Under the pieces are notes generated by a model. It searched no databases, was not told where the DNA came from, and worked only from the letters and a program-made list of their open reading frames with translations. From the NCBI GenBank assembly GCA_964520885.1, contig CAZFQD010000001.1, positions 1 through 52,571 on the forward strand: 52,571 nucleotides of DNA, in the 5' to 3' direction. Shown piece by piece: positions 1,962 to 33,505 of this stretch (position 1 is the first letter of the stretch; each line of letters starts with the position of its first letter). The translations under genes were made by a program, and so were the position numbers. Origin of the DNA: an uncultured Oscillospiraceae bacterium. Lineage in GTDB: Bacteria; Bacillota; Clostridia; Oscillospirales; SIG519.

Positions 1962-4900
1962 ATGAAAATTAATAAAAAACTAATAAAAATAGTGTCAATT
2001 AATTTACTTACCCTTGTTTTTATATTTAGCAATATTTTTGCATCCTTTGTTATTGTTTCAGGAGAACAGGTAACGGTTAATGAAGTTATAAATATGATTG
2101 ACCAATTGCCAAATACTTACTCAGGGTTGCCATTAGTAAATGGTGAAATAGATGAGATTACTTATTCAACAAATGCTTTGCCGTTTATAAAAGATACTTC
2201 TGTTGCTTTTGAGGGAATTAATCCAATTAAGATTACCTCTGAGTCTGGTGGCAGTGATGAAACTACTTTCGGCAAAACATTTGCCTCTTCGCAAGATTTA
2301 TCCGATTTAGATAATATTGAAATGTTGCTTTGGTTTTATGAACAAAATCCTGAATTATATTTAAGCAGTTTTAGAATTGACTTAGTAACATCAGCGGGTA
2401 ATTATTTTTATAAGTATGTTGATGGTTCATATTGGAAAAGATGCCCCGGTGCATCAAGAATAAGATATAATATATCAGAATTTAAGATATATGGAAATCC
2501 GGATTTATCTAATATCAATAGTTTTAACTTGCGGATAAAAGGCGTTGACTATATGGTTGAGAGTTTAGGGCTTTTTTCCGTAACCTACAATGCAAGGAGC
2601 ACCCCAAAAGTAATACTTACCTTTGATGACGGATGGCAAGATAATTATGATAATGCTTTTCCTATTTTAGAAGCACAAGGTTTTAAAGGGGTATCTTATG
2701 CTGTAAGTGATTTCGTTCAAGGAAACGACCCTAATTATATGAGAAAACCAACCCTTGACATTCTTTACAATGCAGGCTGGGATATATCAAATCACTCAAA
2801 GCACCATGAAAATTATAAGATAACCCCCGGAGCAAATGCGGAATATATGGGGACAAGCTACAAAACTTGTCTTGACTTTCTTTTAGATTGTGGCTATGAG
2901 AGAAGTGCAAGATATGTTTGTTATCCGGATGGTAGTTTTGATGATGAATTAATTCCATATTTAAAGGATATAGGTATAGTTTCTGCAAGAACCACAAGAA
3001 TTGGCTATAATGCAGAGCCTTATACTGATTTGTACAAATTAAAACAGTATACAATTGGAGCTGTCACAACCTTTGGAGTTGACAATTCTTCTAATGATAT
3101 TAAAGCCTGTATTGACCGTGCAATTGCTTCGGGGCAAACTATGTCAGTAATGATGCACCGAGTTTCGCTTGATAACCAAATGAATATCTCAGGAGATAGC
3201 ACTAATTCTATAAAAACATCTGTAACTATGTTAACTCAAGTTGTTCAATATTTAAAAGATACAGGTGTTAAAGTTTGCACAATGAGTGAGTGGTATGATG
3301 AGCTACCCTCTATAAAAACATTAACTCTTTTTGATAAATATGATGTATATAATGCAAAAACAGCATATGACCAACTATATTCAGAGCAAAAAGCATTAGT
3401 TACAAATTATAAAAACCTTACCGACGCTATAATTAAAATAGAACAGCTTCAAGGTGAAGCATTGCAACAAGTTATTGATGAAATTTTTGCTTTGCCTTTA
3501 GTAGAAAACTTAACATTAACTGATAAATCGGCGATTATTAAAACAAGACAATATTATGAATTGTTAACGCAACAACAAAAGGAATTAGTTACTAATTATT
3601 CTATTCTTGTTGATGCCGAACAAGCAATTTATTATCTTGAAATAAATACTATTATAGAAAAAATAGATTTTTTGCCAAGTGTAGAAAATTTAGTTCTTTC
3701 GGATAAAACAAGAATAGCATCAATAAGAGAAAATTATAACAATTTAACTACCGAGCAAAAATTACTTGTAACAAATTATGATAAGCTTACAAGTTTAGAA
3801 GCTAAAATATTAATTCTTGAGGATAATGCAGTTTTTGAAATAATTGATTTAATTTATGCTTTGCCGGACATTCAATATTTGGTTCTTGAAGACAGAGCAT
3901 TCGTAGAAGAAGCAAGGGCAAAATATAATATATTAGATGATATTTTAAAAGTTCGTATTAGCAATTACGAAACACTTCAAAAAGCAGAATTATCAATTGA
4001 TAATCTTTTAGCAGAGCAAGTTGTTGATAAAATTAACGCATTACCAATTAACAATTCAGGTATAACTTTAATAAATGGGAAATTAGATGATATTACTTAT
4101 TCAACTAACACCTCGCAAATTATTAAAGACACTTCAGTTAGTTTTGAAGGAGCTTACCCTATTAAAATTACATCAGAAAGCGGGTCAAATATAACTCCAA
4201 CTACATTTGGAAAAACATTTGAATTTTCAAAAGATTTATCAGATTTAACTAATATCGAAATGTTACTTTGGTTTTATGAACAAAATCCCGAATTATATTT
4301 AAGCAGTTTTAGAATTGACTTAGTAACATCAGCGGGCAATTATTTTTATAAGTATGTTGATGGTTCGTATTGGAAAAGATGTCCCGGTGCATCAAGAATA
4401 AGATATAATATTTCAGAATTTTTAACAGTTGGTTCTCCCGATTTGTCTAATATCAATAGTTTTAACATACGAATTAAAGGTGCTGAAGGTATGATTGAGA
4501 GTTTGGGGATTTTTTCAATAGACTACAATGCAAGTAGCTCTCCAAAGGTAATTTTAACATTTGATGACGGATGGCAAGATAATTATGATAATGCTTTTCC
4601 TATTTTAGAAGCACAAGGTTTTAAAGGGGTATCTTATGCTGTAAGTGATTTCGTTCAAGGAAACGACCCTAATTATATGAGAAAACCAACCCTTGACATT
4701 CTTTACAATGCAGGCTGGGATATATCAAATCACTCAAAGCACCATGAAAATTATAAGATAACCCCCGGAGCAAATGCGGAATATATGGGGACAAGCTACA
4801 AAACTTGTCTTGACTTTCTTTTAGATTGTGGCTATGAGAGAAGTGCACGATTTTTAAGTTATACCGATAGCAATTCAGATGACGAATTAATTCCATATTT

Positions 4901-8191: not shown

Positions 8192-8360
8192 TGATATGAA
8201 TGTAATGAGGAATTAGGAATGAGAAATTTAGGTGACAAAATTTTTTTCTTTATTATGTTATTTTCTTATATCTTTTAGGCTAAGGGTGAATGGTTAAAGT
8301 TTAATGACAAAAATGTTATTCTACAACTAAATTGTCATTGCGAGTGTAACGAAGCAATCT
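8192..8360 (+). repeat. Composite intergenic repeat: heptamer array + conserved core + palindrome
   Basis: Heptamer units GAATGTA/ATGAGGA/ATTAGGA/ATGAGAA (8198-8232). Core ATTTAGGTGACAAAATTTTTTTCTTTAT (8226-8253). Palindromic GTCATTGCGAGTGTAACGAAGCAATC (8334-8359), which recurs at 24572-24597. Confidence 0.6.
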
Positions 8361-8448: not shown

Positions 8449-8517
8449 ATAAAAGTTAAAGAATAAAAGGAGGGCAGAATAGAACTTTAACTTAAAATTA
8501 AATAATAGAATATTTAA

Positions 8518-8672
8518 AGCGCCAGAACCGAAATTTTTTATCGGTTGACGAGGAAAGGGATTATCGAAATTATCGGCGGATACCCTTCGGCTATTTGCGT
8601 AATGGTCGTTAGGCTTTTTGTAAAAATTATGGGTAACCATAAAACAAAGCAAAAGCCAATACTACGCAATTT
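8518..8672 (+). ncRNA. glmS ribozyme: glmS ribozyme (GlcN6P-dependent self-cleaving riboswitch)
   Basis: Conserved core strings in order: A|GCGCCAGAAC, CCGA..TCGG hairpin, GGTTGACGAGGA, TATCGAAATTATCGGCGGATACCC, and closing helix TTGCGTA...TACGCAA. It lies immediately 5' of glmS. Confidence 0.85.
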
Positions 8673-8727
8673 TTATGCCCAAAAACAAGATATTAAAAAT
8701 AAATTTAACTTTGAAAGGAATAAATAT

Positions 8728-10539
8728 ATGTGCGGAATAGTTGGATATATTGGCGATAAAGAATGTTCAGATATATTAATAGAAGGCTTAAAGAAATTAG
8801 AATATAGAGGCTACGACTCTGCTGGAATAGCAGTATTTGACCATAATATTAATGTTGTAAAAGTAAAAGGAAGATTGGCAAATTTAGAAAATAAAATAAA
8901 AAATGAGGGAACTCCAAAGGGCAAAGTTGGAATTGGACACACGCGGTGGGCTACTCACGGAGAGCCATCTGATGTAAATTCCCATCCGCATTGTAGTGGA
9001 AAGGTTGTTATAGTTCATAATGGAATTATTGAAAACTACTCTGCTTTAAAACAGCATATGCAAGAGCATAATAGAAAATTTGTTTCAGCAACTGATACTG
9101 AAGTTGTTGCTCATTTGATTGACTTTTATTATGAGGGTGACCCATTAGAAGCAATATTTAAAGCAACAAGTAGAATTAGAGGCTCATATGCTTTAGGGAT
9201 ATTATTTGAAGATATTCAGGATAAAATATTTGCTATTAGAAAGGATAGTCCTTTGGTTGTGGGAATTGGAAAGGGAGAAAACTTTATAGCATCCGATATG
9301 CCTGCAATTTTATCTAAAACAAGAGAGTATTATTTAATTGAAGAGGGCGAATTGGCAGTTTTAACTAAGGATAATATTACGATTTATAATCAAGATAAAG
9401 AAGAAATCAATAAGGAAATAACAACTGCAACTTGGGATGTTGAGGCCGCTGAAAAGGGTGGCTATCCTCACTTTATGTTAAAGGAAATTTATGAACAACC
9501 GAAAGCTTTGAAAAATACTATTAATCCGCGAATAGCAGGTGGTATTCACAATATTTTGTCGGAAGAACTAATTGACACTTCAAATATTAAACGAATTAAC
9601 ATTATTGCTTGTGGCTCTGCAATGCATACCGGTCTTTTAGGAAAATATGCATTTGAAAGATTAGCAAGAATTCCTGTTAATGTAGATGTTGCATCGGAAT
9701 TTCGTTATAGGGACCCCGTTTTATCAGATGGAGACATTGTTTTAATAATATCTCAATCGGGAGAAACAGCGGATTCTTTGGCGGCACTTAGATTAGCAAA
9801 AAGTAGAAACATTCCTACCATAGCAATTGTTAATGTTGTGGGTTCATCTATTGCAAGAGAAGCCGATTCGGTTATTTATTTTCAAGCAGGTCCCGAAATT
9901 GCTGTTGCCACTACAAAGGCTTTTACTTGCCAAACCGCAGTTTTATATCTATTTGCACTAAGATTAGCAATTGACAATAAAACAATTAGTGAACAACGGG
10001 CAAATGAAATTTTAGACGCATTATTGTCCGTCCCAAATGCTGTTGAAGAAATATTAAAGAATATTGAGCATTACCAACATTTAGCTTCATTTAATCAAAA
10101 TATTCATAACCTTTTCTTTATTGGCAGAGGGCAAGATAATGCTCTTTGCTGTGAAGGCTCATTAAAGCTCAAAGAAATATCCTATATGCACAGTGAGGCA
10201 TACGCCGCAGGAGAATTAAAGCACGGAACAATATCCTTAATTTATGACGGTGTGCCTGTTATTGCAGTTGCAACAGAAGATGTGCTTATGGAAAAAACAA
10301 TAAGCAATATTAAAGAGGTTAAAGCAAGAGGGGCTACTGTAACATTTATGTGCAAAAAGGGTGCTGTTAAGGACGGCGATTTTTATGACCATCTTATTGA
10401 ATTGCCAATTTTAGATGAATTTGTTATGCCAATTTTGGCAATCGTGCCTTTGCAAGTTTTTGCTTATTATACTGCTATATATAAGGGCTGTGATGTTGAT
10501 AAGCCAAGGAATTTAGCAAAATCAGTTACAGTTGAATAA
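8728..10539 (+). CDS. glmS: Glutamine--fructose-6-phosphate aminotransferase (isomerizing)
   Basis: True start is MCGIVGYIG (catalytic Cys2). Two SIS domains are present (SQSGETADS) and the C-terminus is ..AKSVTVE. The upstream part of the 8545 track ORF is the ribozyme. Confidence 0.95.
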   Translation: MCGIVGYIGDKECSDILIEGLKKLEYRGYDSAGIAVFDHNINVVKVKGRLANLENKIKNEGTPKGKVGIGHTRWATHGEPSDVNSHPHCSGKVVIVHNGIIENYSALKQHMQEHNRKFVSATDTEVVAHLIDFYYEGDPLEAIFKATSRIRGSYALGILFEDIQDKIFAIRKDSPLVVGIGKGENFIASDMPAILSKTREYYLIEEGELAVLTKDNITIYNQDKEEINKEITTATWDVEAAEKGGYPHFMLKEIYEQPKALKNTINPRIAGGIHNILSEELIDTSNIKRINIIACGSAMHTGLLGKYAFERLARIPVNVDVASEFRYRDPVLSDGDIVLIISQSGETADSLAALRLAKSRNIPTIAIVNVVGSSIAREADSVIYFQAGPEIAVATTKAFTCQTAVLYLFALRLAIDNKTISEQRANEILDALLSVPNAVEEILKNIEHYQHLASFNQNIHNLFFIGRGQDNALCCEGSLKLKEISYMHSEAYAAGELKHGTISLIYDGVPVIAVATEDVLMEKTISNIKEVKARGATVTFMCKKGAVKDGDFYDHLIELPILDEFVMPILAIVPLQVFAYYTAIYKGCDVDKPRNLAKSVTVE

Positions 10540-12503: not shown

Positions 12504-12540
12504 AACCATAAACTTTTTTATTTCATATATTATTATTAAT

Positions 12541-12641
12541 AACTGAGCAGGCGATGAGTTTAATTACTCGTGGGGCTGGGCCTTTAAGGGCAACAGGAAT
12601 ATACCTGTGGGACAGAAATGTGTTTCACAAGGTATTTTTTT
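12541..12641 (+). promoter_or_regulatory. Structured 5' leader with intrinsic terminator (candidate metal riboswitch or attenuator)
   Basis: G-rich blocks GTGGGGCTGGGCC, GGGCAACAGG and TGGGACAG. Terminator ATACCTGTG...CACAAGGTAT plus T-run (12601-12641). Its 5' arm can instead pair with ACAGG at 12593-12597. Confidence 0.4.
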
Positions 12642-18650: not shown

Positions 18651-18767
18651 AATGTAATGAATACTGAATATTGAATAATGAATAATTTCGGTATCAAAAC
18701 TATTTTCTTTATAAAAATGATAAAGTGTAAGAGTCAAAAGTGTAGGGGCGATTATTAATCGCCCGAA
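18651..18767 (+). repeat. Composite repeat: (TGAATAN)x5 + core + GTAGGG-hairpin
   Basis: Heptamers at 18651-18685. Core TTTCGGTATCAAAACTATTTTCTTTAT (18686-18712). REP-like GTAGGGGCGATTATTAATCGCCCGAA (18742-18767). Confidence 0.6.
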
Positions 18768-18815
18768 TAATAAAATTGAATTATCGGGATTTTATTATTT
18801 GTAGAAAATGCAATT

Positions 18816-18940
18816 AAGAAATAAAAAAGAAGAAATAAGAATTAAGGTATCAAAACTATTTTCTTTATATTTATTAATATTTGTTACACAAGAAAAAACA
18901 GAAAATATTGACATTGCAACGGAACGGTCAAGACCGCTCC
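18816..18940 (+). repeat. Composite repeat: (AAGAANN)x5 + core + palindrome
   Basis: Heptamers at 18816-18850. Core AAGGTATCAAAACTATTTTCTTTAT (18844-18868). CGGAACGGTCAAGACCGCTCC (18920-18940). Confidence 0.6.
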
Positions 18941-19011
18941 AAAAGTTAAATTTATTGATTTTATTATTATTATAATTATTATTTAGATTTTGCGAAATGT
19001 GGTGAAAAGTT

Positions 19012-19515
19012 GTGAAAATACACATTATTGGCGGAAGTGGCACAGGCAAGTCATACATTGCGGAAAAAATATCTCGTAAGTTTGGAATGAAGCATTATGA
19101 TTTGGATGATATTTTTTGGGATAACGTAGCAGATACATATGGTACAAAAATGCCAATAGATAAGAGAACAGCTAAACTTAACGACATTCTTAAAAATGAC
19201 AACTGGGTAATTGAAGGTGTGTTTTACGATTGGCTTAGTGATAGTTTTTCGTTGGCGAATTACATTTTTATATTAAAAACAAAACCTATCGTTTTTAATT
19301 TCAGAATTATAAGAAGATTTTTTAGAAGAAAGTTTGGCATTGAAAAAGCGAAGAAAGAAACACTAAAATCTTTGAAGAATTTGCTTGTTTGGACGAACAA
19401 TTATCAAAAAAATAATATTCCAAAGATTGTATTATTTTTAGAGCCTTATAAGCAAAAAGTAATTTTGCTTAACAATGCCGAAAAAATATTAGATTATATT
19501 AACTTCACAAAATAA
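19012..19515 (+). CDS. P-loop NTPase, adenylate-kinase/FlaR-like (AAA family ATPase)
   Basis: GTG start. Walker A IIGGSGTGKSYIAEKI. ~165-aa single-domain kinase-like fold. Confidence 0.7.
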   Translation: MKIHIIGGSGTGKSYIAEKISRKFGMKHYDLDDIFWDNVADTYGTKMPIDKRTAKLNDILKNDNWVIEGVFYDWLSDSFSLANYIFILKTKPIVFNFRIIRRFFRRKFGIEKAKKETLKSLKNLLVWTNNYQKNNIPKIVLFLEPYKQKVILLNNAEKILDYINFTK

Positions 19516-19633
19516 CCCTTTAAAATGGGGAAACGATAAATATTTTATTATACAATAATTAAAAATGAGATTGCCACGCAATGTCAACTTTCAACTTTCC
19601 ACTTTCAACTTTCCACTTTCAATTTTCCACTCA
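19509..19633 (+). repeat. RAYT-like 3' remnant followed by a 7-unit heptamer array
   Basis: 19509-19544 matches 27425-27460 (35/36 nt; encodes NNPLKW.NDKY). (CAACTTT/CCACTTT)x7 at 19585-19633 ends 7 nt before the mutS RBS. Confidence 0.6.
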
Positions 19634-19654: not shown

Positions 19655-22258
19655 ATGTCCGAAATGTCCCCTATGATGAAGCAATACCTTGAAATAAAAG
19701 AAAAGAACAAAGATGCAATTGTATTTTTTCGTTTAGGCGACTTTTACGAAATGTTCTTTGAGGACGCAAAATTAGCCTCAAAGGAATTAGAACTTACCTT
19801 AACAGGCAGGGATTGTGGGCAAGAGGAAAGAGCCCCAATGTGTGGTATTCCTTACCATAGTTGTGATGGCTACATTGCAAGGCTTGTTCAAAAGGGTTAT
19901 AAGGTTGCCATCTGCGAGCAAACAGAAGACCCTTCACAGGCTAAGGGCATTGTAAAAAGAGAGGTTGTCCGAGTTATTACTCCGGGAACGGTTATAGATA
20001 CAGGAATGTTAGAGGAAAGCAAAAACAATTTTTTAGCTTGCGTTTACTTAAACAAAAACAGTGCCGGAATTTGCTTTGCAGACATTTCCACAGGAGAAAT
20101 ATTTGCAACTCAAACTACAAAAGAGGGCGTTGTTAGAATAGTAAACGAATTAGGCAGATTTTCGCCTAAGGAGGTTGTTGTAAATAGTGAGGCGAATGAA
20201 AGTAAAGAAATAAACTCATTTGCTAAGGATAAATTAAATTGTTTATTGTCAAAAGCAATGGACAGTGATTTTGAATTAGAAAAGTGTAAAAATATTGTAG
20301 ATGAGCATTTTGGAGAAAGTGCAAGCACTATAAATAAAGAAGATTGGGAAAATGCAATAAGAGCATTAGGAGTTTTAATTAAATATTTAAACGACACTCA
20401 AAAGGTTAATTTATCCCATTTGGTCAATCTTTCTTTATATGAGCAGTCACAATTTATGGATATAGATTTATTCACAAGGCGAAATTTAGAACTAACCGAA
20501 ACAATGCGACAAAAAGAGAAAAAAGGCTCTCTTTTATGGGTGCTTGATAAAACTAAAACTGCAATGGGTAGTAGAATGTTACGAAATTATATTGAACAGC
20601 CCTTAGTTAGTTGCACTTTAATTAATAAACGCTTAAATGCTGTGGACGAACTTAGCAAAGAGTATATTAAAAGGCAGGAAATTTGTAATGCCCTTGAAAA
20701 TGTTTATGATATTGAAAGGCTAATGACTAAGGTTGTTTTTGGCAATGCAAATGCAAGGGATTTAAAGGCATTGTCGGCAACTGTTTCGCATATGCCAAAT
20801 ATAAAAGAGCAGTTAAATGGGCTTTCTTCTGCTTTGATTAATGAGACGAATAATGCAATAGACAATTTAAAGGATATACATATTTTAATTGAGAGTGCGT
20901 TAACAGATGAACCTCCAATTACAATAAAAGAAGGAAATATTATTCGCAAAGGTTACAGCGAGCAAGTGGACGAACTACTCACTATTATTAATGATGGGCA
21001 ATCGTGGTTTTCAAAAATGGAAGCCACCGAGCGAGATAAAACTGGAATTAAGAAGTTGAAAATTGGCTATAATAAAATATTTGGATATTATATAGAGGTT
21101 ACCCCGTCTTATTATGATTTGGTGCCGGAAAGTTACATAAGAAAGCAAACTTTATCAAATTGTGAGAGGTTTATTACACAAGAATTAAAGGAAATGGAAA
21201 ATAAAATTCTTTCAGCCAAAGAGAAAATTACACAGCTTGAATACGAAATTTTTTGTGATGTGAAAAATGAGATTGCCACTGCGTTACACAGAATTCAAAA
21301 TACAGCCAGTGCAGTAGCAAGGCTTGATGTTTTGTGTTCTTTCGCAGAGGTGGCGGTAAAAAATAATTATATTATGCCACAGGTTGATTATAGCAATGTA
21401 ATTGATATAAAGGACGGGCGACACCCTGTTGTGGAAAAAATGCTTTCTAATTCTTTGTTTGTCCCAAATGACACTTATATGGACAATGACCAAAACAGAT
21501 TAAGCATAATAACAGGACCTAATATGGCAGGAAAATCTACATATATGAGGCAGGTAGCAATTATTGCTTTAATGGCTCAAATAGGCAGTTTTGTGCCAGC
21601 CACATCAGCAAGAATTGGCGTTGTGGACAAGATTTTTACAAGGGTTGGAGCATCGGACGATTTAGCGTCAGGTCAATCCACATTTATGGTTGAAATGAGT
21701 GAGGTTGCAAACATATTAGATAATGCCACTAAAAAAAGCCTTTTAATTTTTGACGAAATAGGCAGAGGAACCTCAACCTTTGACGGTATGAGCATTGCAA
21801 GAGCAGTGCTGGAATTTGTTGCTAATAAGAAAAAATTAGGAGCAAAAGCTTTGTTTGCAACCCATTATCACGAGTTAACCGAATTAGAGGAAATGGTTGA
21901 AGGGGTTAAAAATTACAATATCGCCGTTAAAAAAAGAGGGGACGATATTACCTTTTTAAGAAAAATCGTTCGTGGCGGTGCAGACGATAGTTATGGAATA
22001 GAGGTTGCAAAATTAGCGGGAATTCCGCACGAGGTAATAGAAAGAGCAAAGGATATTTTATTAAAATTAGAAGAGGGACAAGCGGTAGACAATTGCAAGG
22101 GTAATAATAAAAAGGTTATTGAAGACCCCTTAATGCAAATTTCAATGTCGGAAGGAAGCAATAACGAAATTATTGAAAAGTTAAAAAGCTTTGATTTGAA
22201 TGTTTTAACACCAATTGAAGCAATGAATATTTTGTATGAGTTAAAGAAGATGATGTAA
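19655..22258 (+). CDS. mutS: DNA mismatch repair protein MutS
   Basis: Start at MSEMSPMMKQYLEIK after an AAGGAAG RBS. Walker A GPNMAGKSTYMRQ, plus STFMVEM and DEIGRGTSTFDG. Confidence 0.95.
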   Translation: MSEMSPMMKQYLEIKEKNKDAIVFFRLGDFYEMFFEDAKLASKELELTLTGRDCGQEERAPMCGIPYHSCDGYIARLVQKGYKVAICEQTEDPSQAKGIVKREVVRVITPGTVIDTGMLEESKNNFLACVYLNKNSAGICFADISTGEIFATQTTKEGVVRIVNELGRFSPKEVVVNSEANESKEINSFAKDKLNCLLSKAMDSDFELEKCKNIVDEHFGESASTINKEDWENAIRALGVLIKYLNDTQKVNLSHLVNLSLYEQSQFMDIDLFTRRNLELTETMRQKEKKGSLLWVLDKTKTAMGSRMLRNYIEQPLVSCTLINKRLNAVDELSKEYIKRQEICNALENVYDIERLMTKVVFGNANARDLKALSATVSHMPNIKEQLNGLSSALINETNNAIDNLKDIHILIESALTDEPPITIKEGNIIRKGYSEQVDELLTIINDGQSWFSKMEATERDKTGIKKLKIGYNKIFGYYIEVTPSYYDLVPESYIRKQTLSNCERFITQELKEMENKILSAKEKITQLEYEIFCDVKNEIATALHRIQNTASAVARLDVLCSFAEVAVKNNYIMPQVDYSNVIDIKDGRHPVVEKMLSNSLFVPNDTYMDNDQNRLSIITGPNMAGKSTYMRQVAIIALMAQIGSFVPATSARIGVVDKIFTRVGASDDLASGQSTFMVEMSEVANILDNATKKSLLIFDEIGRGTSTFDGMSIARAVLEFVANKKKLGAKALFATHYHELTELEEMVEGVKNYNIAVKKRGDDITFLRKIVRGGADDSYGIEVAKLAGIPHEVIERAKDILLKLEEGQAVDNCKGNNKKVIEDPLMQISMSEGSNNEIIEKLKSFDLNVLTPIEAMNILYELKKMM

Positions 22259-22263
22259 ATTAA

Positions 22264-22536
22264 TTGTGGAATGGTCTTGACCATTCCGAAAAAGAAAACC
22301 TTGTATATATTATAACGGAACGGTCAAGACCGTTCCCTACCATACAAAAAATAATGGGTTTATACAAATCGGGTGTTTCAAAAAACATTCATTTAATTAA
22401 TGAAAAAATAGAAGTGTGGCAAAAATCATATTATGAACACATAATACGAAACGAACAAGATTACAAAGAAATCTATGAATACATAGAAAATAACCCTTTA
22501 AAATGGGAATTGGATAAATATTTTAACTTATCTTAA
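22264..22536 (+). pseudogene. 5'-truncated RAYT/IS200-like (Y1 HUH) transposase remnant with embedded palindromes
   Basis: C-terminal WQKSYYEHIIRNEQDYKEIYEYIENNPLKWELDKY is present but there is no HUH motif. Inverted palindromes GGAATGGTCTTGACCATTCC (22268-22287) and GGAACGGTCAAGACCGTTCC (22318-22337). Confidence 0.6.
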
Positions 22537-22615
22537 CACTAAAAGATTAATAGTATATAATAAAATTGAATTTTATATTAGTCGGAAAAATAAAAATAAC
22601 AATGCACAATTAATT

Positions 22616-22680
22616 AAAGAAAATGACTTTGAAACCGAAAATTTTCAATTTTCAATTTTCAACTTTTCACTTTCAACTTA
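22616..22680 (-). repeat. Core (inverted) + heptamer array upstream of mutL
   Basis: AAAGAAAATGACTTTGAAACCGAAA is the reverse complement of the core. (ATTTTCA/ACTTTCA)x6 at 22641-22680. Confidence 0.6.
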
Positions 22681-24493: not shown

Positions 24494-24500
24494 ATTAATA

Positions 24501-24597
24501 TAGAATGTAGAATGTAGAATTTCGGTGTCAAAGCCATTTTCTTTATTTGAATTTTGCATATTGTTAAATTTGTCATTGCGAGTGAAACGAAGCAATC
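24501..24597 (+). repeat. Composite repeat: (TAGAATG)x3 + core + palindrome
   Basis: Core TTTCGGTGTCAAAGCCATTTTCTTTAT (24520-24546). GTCATTGCGAGTGAAACGAAGCAATC (24572-24597). Confidence 0.6.
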
Positions 24598-27109: not shown

Positions 27110-27472
27110 ATTGTTGAGAACAATATAAATATTATTGCAAATTACAAGGAATACATAAAGGTTATAAATTATTGCATAATGCCAAATCACATTCATTTGT
27201 TGTTGGCAATTTGTAGGGAACGCATTGTATGCGTTCCGAATGAAAACCGAACCAAAATGGAAATTTCAAAAATAATACAGCAATTTAAAGCATCAGTTTC
27301 AAAACAATGTAGTGCAATCAATAATAACGGAACGCATACAATGCGTTCCCTACAATGGCAAAAATCATATTATGACCACATAATCAGAAACAAAAAAGAC
27401 TATAAAGAAATTTATGAATACATAGAAAATAACCCTTTAAAATGGGAAAACGATAAATATTATTGCAAGTAA
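27110..27472 (+). pseudogene. 5'-truncated RAYT/IS200-like (Y1 HUH) transposase remnant with embedded palindromes
   Basis: The in-frame stretch ..YKEYIKVINYCIMPNHIHLLL (HUH motif) opens only after TGA 27107. The C-terminus is WQKSYYDHIIRNKKDYKEIYEYIENNPLKWENDKY. Perfect hairpins GGAACGCATTGTATGCGTTCC (27216-27236) and its reverse complement (27328-27348) lie inside the reading frame. Confidence 0.65.
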
Positions 27473-27481
27473 ATATTAATT

Positions 27482-27539
27482 AAAGAAAATAGTTTTGATA
27501 CCATAATTGTTAATTGTTCCTTGTTAATTGTTCATTGCA
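27482..27539 (-). repeat. Core (inverted) + heptamer array upstream of yggS
   Basis: AAAGAAAATAGTTTTGATACCAT is the reverse complement of the core. (AATTGTT/CCTTGTT)x5 at 27505-27539. Confidence 0.6.
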
Positions 27540-29039: not shown

Positions 29040-29150
29040 GTATAAAAAATTAGTAATTATGAATTAGGAATAAAAGTATGGCTTTGTCACTTGATATTAA
29101 TTTAAGTCAACTTTGGCACACATTAATTATACAATGCAAAAAAAAATAAA

Positions 29151-33398: not shown

Positions 33399-33472
33399 AG
33401 CATAACAGTAGGGCAAAGCGAAAAGCACCCGACGCTTTGTGAAAGATGTGCAAAAGTAGTTGGTTAGGAGTT
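33399..33472 (+). pseudogene. ileS: Displaced copy of the ileS 3' end (partner 32685-32758)
   Basis: 74 nt with 4 mismatches and no indels. Includes the TAG stop and the first heptamer unit. Confidence 0.85.
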
Positions 33473-33505
33473 GGGAATTAGGATTTAGGAATTAAGAATA
33501 AAATT
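33464..33505 (+). repeat. Heptamer array (TTAGGAG/TTGGGAA/TTAGGAT/TTAGGAA/TTAAGAA)
   Basis: Six consecutive 7-nt units read directly from the sequence. Confidence 0.55.

What the first reader, a model, noticed from the sequence alone, without database searches (positions are those of the whole stretch)
18651..19633. Dispersed composite repeat family: locus-specific heptamer array + conserved 25-nt core + REP-like palindrome (+/- RAYT-like ORF)
At least seven copies share the core TTYGGTNTCAAARNNATTTTCTTTA. They are at 8226-8253, 18686-18712, 18844-18868 and 24520-24546, and inverted at 22616-22640 and 27482-27504, with a degenerate piece near 29078-29092. On one side of each core is a tandem array of 4-7 heptamers. 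The unit sequence differs between loci: TGAATAN, AAGAANN, TAGAATG, ATTTTCA, AATTGTT, ATGAGGA. On the other side, 25-80 nt away, is one of three palindrome types: GTAGGG-hairpin-CGAA, GGAACGGTCAAGACCGYTCC, or GTCATTGCGAGTGNAACGAAGCAATC. In the two longest copies, a truncated RAYT/IS200-like ORF lies beyond the palindromes. Conserved periodicity combined with non-conserved unit sequence is not what a simple MITE or REP would show. I do not know a described element with this layout.
Basis: seen in the sequence. Interest (0 to 1): 0.65.

Follow-up and report, generated by a model that had tools for sequence, protein, structure and literature searches.

The report
Mosaic intergenic repeats with species-specific core
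The repeats are real, but they are not one composite element: an uncultured Clostridia bacterium has filled once-tight gene junctions with separately repeated pieces (7-base tandem arrays, a species-specific 25-base core, hairpin repeats and decayed transposase genes), a new variant of a known but unexplained kind of bacterial filler DNA.

Summary
The 25-nt core occurs 6 times in the window (0.04 expected) and about 33-45 times in the 2.3-Mb genome. It is absent from 40 relatives, from 185,579 species genomes and from metagenomes, apart from this same organism.

Nearly every copy abuts the inner end of a tandem heptamer array. The "single composite element" reading is only partly right.
- The genome holds about 166-181 heptamer arrays (0-1 in shuffles), and most have no core.
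- The arrays follow the rule published for Xanthomonas and Nostoc heptamers. The purine-rich strand starts at or on a stop codon, or its complement ends just before a Shine-Dalgarno site.
- Palindromes go with arrays in general, not with the core.
The third (P1, at least 48 copies) also occurs in RAYT-bearing relatives.
- RAYT remnants are real (three in the window). One intact RAYT gene lies elsewhere in the genome.

In two same-family relatives the ylbF-mutS spacer is 37-53 nt; here it is 1,025 nt.

Best reading: a BIME-like mosaic of STRR-type arrays, a species-specific unstructured small dispersed repeat, and a REP/RAYT system. How the core spreads is inferred, not shown.

The parts
8204..8227 (+). 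heptamer array (AATGAGG x3.4)
   Evidence: TRF
8228..8252 (+). core K1, diverged copy (3 mismatches; 17 bits with profile R1)
8334..8359 (+). P1 palindrome GTCATTGCGAGTGTAACGAAGCAATC
18655..18686 (+). heptamer array (TGAATAN x4.6), left outer arm of the ylbF-mutS island
18687..18711 (+). core K1 (subfamily AAAACTA), 0 mismatches
18742..18768 (+). GTAG-tagged REP hairpin GTAGGGGCGATTATTAATCGCCCGAAT
18815..18846 (+). weaker heptamer array (AAGAAAT-type x4.6)
18843..18867 (+). core K1, second copy in the same island
18921..18940 (.). degenerate REP-type hairpin GGAACGGTCAAGACCGCTCC, with the GTAG lost
   Evidence: family defined
19012..19515 (+). cargo ORF: P-loop kinase / DNA-topology-modulation-like protein, not a RAYT
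19508..19546 (+). 13-residue remnant of a RAYT C-terminus (QNNPLKWGNDKYF) fused at the end of the kinase ORF
19567..19585 (-). short P1-like palindrome (GACATTGCGTGGCAATCTC on the - strand)
19584..19631 (-). heptamer array (GAAAGTT/GAAAGTG x6.9 on the - strand), right outer arm; ends about 23 nt before the mutS ATG at 19655
22264..22536 (+). RAYT remnant ORF (C-terminal WQKSYYEHIIRN...YIENNPLKW) with a GTAG REP inside it at 22317-22340(-)
22615..22639 (-). core K1
22640..22679 (-). heptamer array directly upstream of the mutL Shine-Dalgarno site
24497..24520 (+). heptamer array (TAGAATG x3.4) starting 3 nt after the mutL stop codon
24521..24545 (+). core K1 (subfamily AAAGCCA)
24572..24597 (+). 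P1 palindrome
27113..27472 (+). N-terminally truncated RAYT gene (HUH and Y motifs) with two inverted GTAG REPs inside it at 27213-27237(+) and 27329-27353(-)
27481..27505 (-). core K1, 8 nt after the RAYT remnant's stop codon
27504..27537 (-). heptamer array just upstream of the Shine-Dalgarno site of the PLP-binding (YggS-type) gene
29048..29092 (.). heptamer array (AATTAGG-type) followed by a degenerate, reversed K1-like piece
33464..33499 (+). heptamer array (TTAGGAA x5) directly after the displaced copy of the ileS 3' end

Best explanation
Window 18651-19633 is the interior of a 1,025-nt island inserted into what is a 37-53-nt ylbF-mutS spacer in two same-family genomes. It is one of many such islands in this genome. 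The islands are mosaics of independently repeated modules that follow a grammar.

1. At the outer edge, against the gene, sits an STRR-type heptamer array. Its purine-rich strand reads from the gene boundary inward. It starts at or on a stop codon, or its complement ends just before a Shine-Dalgarno site.
2. At the inner end of an array sits one of several small modules. It is an unstructured 25-nt small dispersed repeat with two subfamilies and about 33-45 copies, confined to this species.
3. Further in lie REP-type hairpins: GTAG-tagged REPs, mostly as inverted REPIN-like doublets, and P1 palindromes.
4. Also inside are remnants of RAYT (HUH/Y1 transposase) genes and occasional cargo genes.

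Shown here: the modules, their counts, their positions, their free recombination, and that the islands are insertions.

Inferred: K1 multiplies as a non-autonomous module that is copied to the junction ...AAT|TTCGGT at the inner end of arrays. One route would be a trans-acting single-strand DNA enzyme such as the genome's RAYT. The other would be template switching or gene conversion between similar arrays. Its even split between sense and antisense orientation and its lack of any fold argue for a DNA-level element rather than an RNA signal.
For: Counts and specificity of the core: 6 copies in the window against 0.04 expected. 37 copies with up to 2 mismatches in the genome against 2 in a shuffle. 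Profile R1 gives 33 hits of at least 20.8 bits here, while the best hit in 20 relatives is 19.2 bits. Only 5 single chance hits occur in 185,579 species genomes. In metagenomes, every array-linked hit is at least 99.9% identical to this genome, and the other roughly 67 hits have no array.

Core-array link: 28 of 37 copies against 2.3% background, and AAT precedes 31 of 37. There are two subfamilies, GCCA (19) and ACTA (11).

Arrays: 166 against 0 in a shuffle at lag 7, and 0-18 at other lags. TRF at score 40 or more gives 181 against 1. 72 arrays sit a median 3 nt from a stop codon with purines on the sense strand, and 28 of them contain the stop codon. 43 arrays sit 14-27 nt before a start codon with pyrimidines on the sense strand. 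Paired arrays face inward in 11 of 15 spacers.

Module independence.

REP/RAYT system: 62 GTAG hairpins against 0 in a shuffle, and 10 of 11 neighbouring pairs are inverted. An intact 183-aa RAYT lies at C112:4966-5517 and scores 79.5 bits against NF047646.

Islands are insertions: the mutS-mutL gap is 0-16 nt in relatives and 438 nt here. The ylbF-mutS gap is 37-53 nt in relatives and 1,025 nt here.

Other tests on K1: orientation is 17 sense to 14 antisense. It has no fold, with free energy -0.2 and 0 kcal/mol and z-scores -0.4 and +0.3. It matches no Rfam family. Promoter-like sites are not in excess.
Against: No presence/absence polymorphism of K1 could be observed. All public assemblies carrying these loci are the same strain, with no variation in array length or in K1. 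No same-genus genome is held. Mobility therefore rests on copy number, subfamily structure and combinatorial flanks.

The intact RAYT at C112 has no REP, P1, K1 or array within a few hundred nt, so the enzyme-substrate link is unproven.

K1 follows the stop codon of two of nine RAYT 3' remnants, so it might instead be a decayed end of a RAYT cassette.

Gene boundaries were called with a simple ORF heuristic of my own.

The genome is a 255-contig assembly whose contigs often break in repeats, so copy numbers are lower bounds.
Confidence: 0.6

Rival explanations
1. Array + core + palindrome, with or without a RAYT gene, is one composite non-autonomous element, a new MITE- or REPIN-like family that transposes as a block.
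For: All six window copies show array then core, with a palindrome or a RAYT remnant further in. A palindromic module lies within 120 nt of 17 of 36 cores, against 5% of random intergenic positions. A few copies share array type, core and about 25 nt beyond it, for example window 18687 and C39:3025.
Against: Most arrays lack the core: 148 of 163. Palindromes are almost as frequent near arrays without the core, 27% against 40%. The same downstream module occurs behind different arrays, and the same array type occurs before different modules. Arrays abut P1 or REP directly, with no core, at many loci. There are no terminal inverted repeats and no target duplications. Some islands consist of two arrays only, such as C53, 85 nt long.
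Confidence: 0.1
2. K1 is the conserved subterminal end of a once-complete RAYT or IS200-like cassette, lying between the transposase stop codon and the array arm. The solo copies are what remains after internal deletion.
For: In two of nine RAYT 3' remnants, reverse-complemented K1 follows the stop codon, after 8 nt at 27481 and 78 nt at 22615. It is joined by the shared ATTAAT and followed by the array. P1 occupies the same slot behind two other remnants. K1 always has one orientation relative to the arm.
Against: Only 2 of about 36 K1 copies are next to RAYT sequence. The intact RAYT (C112) and four other remnants have no K1. K1 has no hairpin, whereas IS200/IS605 and REP ends are defined by hairpins. 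The inner flanks of solo K1 copies are other repeat modules, not graded deletions of a RAYT 3' end.
Confidence: 0.15
3. K1 is a functional cis-element, such as a protein-binding site or an RNA signal, kept by selection next to the arrays. It would not be a selfish repeat.
For: An 18-nt block, TCAAA(G/A)C(C/T)ATTTTCTTTA, is nearly invariant. Its position relative to gene boundaries is very regular. The reverse strand carries a TTGACA-like hexamer.
Against: K1 is absent from every relative and every other genome searched, so it is not a conserved regulatory site. It occurs in sense and antisense about equally, 17 to 14. It lies next to unrelated housekeeping genes. There is no consistent -10 partner and no excess of promoter-like sites. 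It matches no Rfam family and has no fold.
Confidence: 0.1
4. The pattern is an assembly or binning artefact of a metagenome-assembled genome.
For: The genome is in 255 contigs, and many contigs end in repeats.
Against: The same islands, base for base, appear in independent assemblies from ENA, JGI and Logan. The repeats lie between intact, syntenic housekeeping genes.
Confidence: 0.02

Closest known systems
STRR / long heptameric simple-sequence repeats: Calothrix and Nostoc STRR, Xanthomonas GGGAATC, Nostoc GGGGAYT (Rehm et al. 2015, PMC4692102; heptamer excess noted by Mrazek et al. 2007 as cited there)
   Same: Period of exactly 7. Typically 3-6 units. Hundreds of intergenic arrays. Units vary around a theme. 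The purine-rich strand is the sense strand within a few nt of, or overlapping, the stop codon, and the antisense strand just upstream of ORFs. Inverted pairs occur.
   Different: The units here are AT-rich (AAKKRRN: AATTAGG, AAGTGGA, AAGTTGA, GTAACAA and others) and cannot form G-quadruplexes, so the G4 explanation offered for Xanthomonas and Nostoc does not apply. The host is a Clostridia lineage. The density of about 71 per Mb is about 12 times that in samples of two same-family genomes.
Small dispersed repeats (SDR1-8) of heterocystous cyanobacteria (Elhai et al. 2008, Genome Res 18:1484; paper not held, details from memory and from citing papers PMC4390886 and PMC13756078)
   Same: Length of 21-27 nt. 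Dispersed and lineage-restricted. Function unknown. Placed precisely in or next to another short host repeat: SDR5 sits between bases 3 and 4 of HIP1, and K1 sits after ...AAT at the inner end of a heptamer array.
   Different: K1 shares no sequence with the SDRs and lies in another phylum. It does not fold. Mobility of the SDRs was argued from presence/absence at orthologous sites, which could not be tested here.
REP / REPIN-RAYT systems (Nunvar 2010; Bertels and Rainey 2011, PMC3116915; E. coli TnpA-REP)
   Same: There are 62 hairpins tagged with a 5' GTAG. 10 of 11 neighbouring pairs are inverted doublets about 30 or 91 nt apart. A RAYT-type HUH/Y1 gene is present.
   Different: The RAYT is not single-copy: there is one intact gene and at least 9 fragments. 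REPs have landed inside RAYT reading frames. The intact gene is not flanked by REPs. K1 itself is not a REP.
BIMEs (bacterial interspersed mosaic elements) of E. coli
   Same: Intergenic mosaics built from a small vocabulary of motifs combined in different orders.
   Different: BIMEs have no heptamer arrays and no unstructured core motif of this kind, and their motifs are unrelated in sequence. This comparison rests on my own knowledge.
S23p (PF05635) four-helix-bundle genes inside stems with tandem heptamers, as in the Coxiella burnetii 23S rRNA intervening sequence (Warrier et al. 2016, PMC4990558)
   Same: In this genome two of four PF05635 genes (C3:8317-8634 and C33:11156-11293) sit between inverted heptamer arrays at operon junctions, and a third sits between inverted 10-mers. 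The Coxiella IVS has a strain-variable number of GACAGAT repeats.
   Different: The finding's own island carries no S23p gene. Most array pairs here are not complementary: 13 of 147 arrays have a partner matching at 14 of 16 or better.

Membership tests
STRR-type heptamer SSR arrays | Tandem repeats of period exactly 7, far more frequent than chance and than other periods | tested here: met
   166 against 0 in a shuffle at lag 7, and 0-18 at lags 5, 6, 8, 9 and 10. TRF at score 40 or more: 181 against 1.
STRR-type heptamer SSR arrays | Intergenic, with strand polarity relative to neighbouring ORFs: sense after the stop codon, antisense before the start (PMC4692102) | tested here: met
   72 arrays at gene ends (median 3 nt from the stop) and 43 at gene starts (14-27 nt) obey the rule. 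40 do not, and those are scattered.
Small dispersed repeats (SDR, Elhai 2008) | Dispersed repeat of 21-27 nt, lineage-restricted, precisely placed relative to another host repeat | tested here: met
   25 nt; 33-45 copies; this species only. Always at the inner end of an array, after AAT.
Small dispersed repeats (SDR, Elhai 2008) | Mobility shown by filled and empty orthologous sites | not testable with these tools
   Only one strain population is available, with identical loci. No same-genus genome is held.
REP / REPIN-RAYT system (applies to the hairpins, not to the core) | Hairpin preceded by a conserved GTAG; many copies; inverted doublets | tested here: met
   62 against 0 in a shuffle. 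Stems differ (GGAACGC, GGGCGAT and others) within a constant GTAGGG...CCG frame. 10 of 11 neighbouring pairs are inverted. Free energy -9.8 kcal/mol, z -5.4.
REP / REPIN-RAYT system | A RAYT gene with HUH and catalytic-Tyr motifs | tested here: met
   C112:4966-5517 encodes 183 aa with PNHFHAIV and WQKSYYDHIIRN...YIENNP. NF047646 scores 79.5 bits against a cut-off of 80. Pfam Y1_Tnp matches the paralogues.
REP / REPIN-RAYT system | Single-copy RAYT flanked by its cognate REPs | tested here: not met
   There are at least 9 further fragments. No REP, P1 or K1 lies beside the intact copy.
REP (is the 25-nt core itself a REP?) | Imperfect palindrome able to form a hairpin | tested here: not met
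   Free energy -0.2 and 0 kcal/mol; z -0.44 and +0.34.
MITE | Terminal inverted repeats and target-site duplication around a unit of fixed length | tested here: not met
   The core has no TIR. Its flanks are an array on one side and variable modules on the other.
IS200/IS605 end | Subterminal hairpin next to a Y1 transposase gene; the same end found on intact elements | tested here: not met
   The core has no hairpin. It is adjacent to RAYT remnants in only 2 of about 36 copies. It is absent from all other genomes searched.
S23p (PF05635) heptamer-armed cassette | A PF05635 gene enclosed by inverted heptamer arrays | tested here: inconclusive
   Met for 2 of 4 PF05635 genes elsewhere in the genome. 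None lies in the finding's island or in the window.

The most novel reading that the evidence does not exclude
Gene-boundary heptamer arrays would be docking sites of an active insertion system. Arrays would be laid down at stop codons and Shine-Dalgarno sites. Short unstructured modules such as K1, and also REPs, RAYT genes and S23p genes, would then be delivered specifically to the inner end of an array (...AAT|TTCGGT) by a single-strand DNA enzyme encoded in the same genome. On this reading, K1 would be the first 'handle' sequence that marks the delivery junction. The AT-rich, non-G4 arrays of this Clostridia genome would show that the 35-year-old STRR puzzle has a transposition-type answer rather than a G-quadruplex or polymerase-slippage answer.
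Probability: 0.12. Interest if true: 0.8.

Novelty: new variant of a known kind. Interest (0 to 1): 0.45.

Why it matters
Tandem heptamer arrays have been known since 1990 in cyanobacteria, and later in Xanthomonas, and remain unexplained. This genome gives a very dense example (about 71 arrays per Mb in 2.3 Mb) in an AT-rich Clostridia lineage. It obeys the same stop-codon and start-codon polarity rule, yet its units cannot form G-quadruplexes, which removes the leading functional explanation.

It also shows, in one small genome, several features together:
- arrays at the outer edge of insertion islands;
- a young, species-specific 25-nt module always attached to the inner end of an array;
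- a full REP/RAYT system with decaying transposase copies;
- heptamer-armed S23p genes.

That makes the question 'what puts things next to heptamer arrays?' concrete. The practical limits are that the organism is uncultured and only one strain has been sampled.

Tried and rejected
- Known RNA family: an Rfam scan of 7900-29300 found only a glmS ribozyme and a NiCo riboswitch, and nothing at the core or the arrays.
- Hairpin or REP nature of the core: rejected by folding.
- Promoter: promoter-like sites are not in excess (54 against 56.5 expected), and the TTGACA-like hexamer in the reversed core has no consistent -10 partner.
- Known IS or MITE terminus, or a widespread motif: an exact-pattern scan of 185,579 species genomes gave 5 unrelated single hits. 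The metagenome scan gave only this organism plus chance hits inside genes. A three-hit relative (G030) proved to be coding sequence.
- Strain comparison of array length: all contigs carrying the identical YlbF or Hfq protein come from one strain population and are identical across the islands. Among about 16 SNPs in about 90 kb, one lies in an array, and there is no copy-number change.
- Complementary arms (hairpin model) as the general rule: only 13 of 147 arrays have a reverse-complement partner matching at 14 of 16 or better in the same spacer, against 2-10 in controls.
- Literature search for the P1 sequence: nothing relevant.
Full report
**The observation.** The core TTYGGTNTCAAARNNATTTTCTTTA occurs six times in the window with up to 3 mismatches, against 0.04 expected from shuffles. 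Put in one orientation, every copy is directly preceded by a short tandem array of 7-nt units ending in ...AAT, and is followed by AT-rich sequence and then varied modules. ORF 27179-27472 is a Pfam Y1_Tnp fragment with HUH and Tyr motifs. ORF 22264-22536 ends with the same RAYT C-terminus. A third 13-residue remnant sits at 19508-19546. The large ORF inside the flagged region, 19012-19515, is a P-loop kinase, not a RAYT.

**The core in the whole genome and beyond.** The window is contig 1 of a 2.32-Mb, 255-contig, 31.5% G+C Clostridia-type genome. The 22-nt core pattern has 37 copies with up to 2 mismatches, against 2 in a shuffle. A sequence profile built from 33 copies gives 33 hits of at least 20.8 bits and about 45 down to 16.5 bits. 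The best hit in 20 relatives is 19.2 bits. The core is absent from 40 relatives: they have 0-3 hits, the same as a reversed-pattern control, and the three-hit case is coding sequence. It is absent from 185,579 species genomes. In the metagenome collection, all 13 hits that have an upstream array are at least 99.9% identical to this genome, and the remaining roughly 67 hits are chance matches inside unrelated genes. The copies fall into two subfamilies, AAAGCCA (19-21 copies) and AAAACTA (11 copies), with an almost invariant 18-nt block. This pattern fits a young, species-specific expansion from a few source copies.

**The arrays are a genome-wide feature of their own.** A lag-7 detector finds 166 arrays against none in a Markov shuffle, and 0-18 at lags 5, 6, 8, 9 and 10. 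TRF at score 40 or more finds 181 period-7 arrays against 1. The units are variations on AAKKRRN, such as AATTAGG, AAGTGGA, AAGTTGA, GTAACAA, TTAACAA, AATGAGG and AATGTAG, and are strongly purine-rich on one strand.

Their placement is precise. 72 arrays have the purine strand as sense strand at a gene end, a median 3 nt from the stop codon, and in 28 of these the stop codon lies in the first unit. 43 arrays have the pyrimidine strand as sense strand 14-27 nt before a start codon, just ahead of the Shine-Dalgarno site. The two opposite combinations (20 each) are scattered. When two arrays share a spacer they face inward in 11 of 15 cases. This is the rule published for G-rich heptamers of Xanthomonas and Nostoc, including arrays that overlap stop codons (PMC4692102). 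The units here cannot form G-quadruplexes.

Samples of two same-family genomes have about 5-6 arrays per Mb, against 71 per Mb here. The commonest unit gives 58 hits here and 0-2 in each relative.

**The composite is a mosaic, not a unit.**
- The core is tied to arrays: 28 of 37 copies, against 2.3% of random intergenic 28-mers, and AAT precedes 31 of 37.
- Arrays are not tied to the core: only 15 of 163 have it adjacent.
- Palindromic modules lie within 150 nt inward of 40% of arrays with the core and 27% of arrays without it.
- Only 29 of 666 core pairs share 12 nt or more downstream. Those shared stretches are other reusable modules found behind different arrays.
- At many loci an array abuts P1 or a REP directly, with no core.
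- Other small modules occupy the same slot after a similar NNGGT junction. These include the hairpin GAAATGC-NNN-GCATTTC and GTCGCC-N-GGCGAC.
- The 3' half of the core also occurs behind a different module.
- Some islands are just two inward-facing arrays 7 nt apart.

**The hairpins and the transposase.** It has the frame GTAGGG-stem-loop-stem-CCG with differing stems. There are 62 perfect copies against 0 in a shuffle, and 10 of 11 neighbouring pairs are inverted, about 30 or 91 nt apart. This is the REP/REPIN layout, and the hairpin is stable.

Type 3 (P1) has at least 48 copies here. It also occurs, 7 copies each, in two relatives of another family that also carry RAYT genes. It folds only weakly.

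One intact 183-aa RAYT gene lies at C112:4966-5517 and scores 79.5 bits on NF047646 against a cut-off of 80. At least nine fragments are scattered through the genome. In three fragments two inverted REPs lie inside the reading frame and bracket a nearly identical stretch of about 91 nt. The intact gene has no REP, P1, core or array beside it. The two same-family relatives have no RAYT.

**The islands are insertions.** In relatives, mutS and mutL are 0-16 nt apart and ylbF and mutS are 37-53 nt apart. Here the gaps are 438 and 1,025 nt. This explains why the outermost module hugs the stop codon and the Shine-Dalgarno site: the original spacers were tiny. What still needs a mechanism is why the outermost module is nearly always an array pointing inward.

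**How the core probably works.** The core has no fold and no Rfam match. It gives no excess of promoter-like sites. It occurs in sense and antisense about equally, 17 to 14. I therefore read it as a DNA-level, non-autonomous small dispersed repeat. The closest parallel is the cyanobacterial SDRs, one of which inserts precisely into another short repeat.

That the core multiplies by being copied to the array's inner end is inferred. It rests on copy number, subfamilies, sharp ends and combinatorial flanks. Two routes remain open: delivery by a single-strand DNA enzyme such as the RAYT, or template switching between similar arrays. The core follows two of nine RAYT 3' ends, which keeps a 'decayed cassette end' reading alive.

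**Earlier scan notes.** Notes from other windows pointed to PF05635 (S23p) genes enclosed by inverted heptamer arrays. I tested this here. Two of four PF05635 genes in this genome are so enclosed, and one is enclosed by inverted 10-mers. This matches the heptamer-bearing stem of the Coxiella rRNA intervening sequence. However, complementary arms are the exception in this genome, and the finding's own island has no such gene.

**Limits.**
- No sister strain or same-genus genome is available.
- Gene boundaries come from my own ORF heuristic.
- The assembly is fragmented, so counts are lower bounds.

**Verdict.** This is a new variant of a known kind: STRR-type arrays, an SDR-like core and a REP/RAYT system arranged as a BIME-like mosaic in Clostridia.

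Noticed in passing
window 27213-27353; also C88:~4600-4800 and C12:19709-19851 of the genome: Two inverted GTAG REPs lie inside RAYT reading frames. They bracket about 91 nt of RAYT coding sequence that is almost identical in three loci, while the flanking RAYT sequence has diverged. In C12 the homology starts exactly at the left REP. This looks like a REPIN that has captured, and now carries around, a piece of its own transposase gene.
   Followed up: partly
genome C3:8317-8634, C33:11156-11293, C23:2363-2677: PF05635 (23S rRNA intervening-sequence protein, four-helix bundle) genes are wedged between housekeeping genes. Two are flanked by inverted heptamer arrays (C3, C33). C23 is flanked by inverted 10-mer arrays.
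   Followed up: partly
genome, many contig ends (e.g. C41:~15700): The 53-mer AGATAGTGTAAAAACTTTTATGAAAACTTCTGAAACAAACCCTTGACAGCCAA occurs about 32 times. A second repeat, AGGTGACTAACTATTAAAAGTCAAGCATTTTTTAAAAATTTTT..., occurs about 35-40 times. Both often lie near contig ends, and one interrupts a RAYT gene. This may be another repeat family or an IS end that breaks the assembly.
   Followed up: no
window 8507-8667 and 12533-12617: A glmS ribozyme (115 bits) lies upstream of the glmS gene (8545-10539 as an ORF), just downstream of the 8228 core island. A NiCo riboswitch (60 bits) lies upstream of the 12554-15217 gene.
   Followed up: no
genome C12:17664..., C24:12671..., C11:~20800, C95:~4530: Long P1 variants exist in which about 45 nt (TAGCCGACACCGCAGTGTCGTCCTGAGGCGTATCCCGCCGAAGGAGCC) is nested inside the P1 palindrome, between GTCATTGCA and CGTGGCAATCTC. 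This is one repeat nested within another.
   Followed up: no
genome C2:3604, C40:12242, C74:376, C28:3012 and others: A two-hairpin module, GAAATGC-NNN-GCATTTC followed by TTTTAATTAGATAA and GTCGCC-AAA-GGCGAC, is bounded by AAGGT...ACCTT and sits between inward-facing heptamer arrays. It is a second small element family using the same array-end junction as the core.
   Followed up: partly
window 22533-22561: A near-consensus promoter-like site (TTAACA, 17 nt, TATAAT; 11 of 12 matches) lies inside the inserted island upstream of mutL. In relatives mutL is translationally coupled to mutS. The insertion may have given mutL its own promoter.
   Followed up: no
relatives G001:C8:1083-1137, G006:C32:16812, G014:C23, G040:C12: The same heptamer unit family (AATTAGG / TTAGGAG) turns up in single arrays in genomes of four other families of the order. 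In G001 it lies upstream of a gene, with the purine strand as sense strand.
   Followed up: partly
genome C12:17613-18610: A 996-nt spacer contains a tandem duplication of about 235 nt. The duplicated block is itself made of a GTAG REP, heptamers and two P1 palindromes.
   Followed up: no
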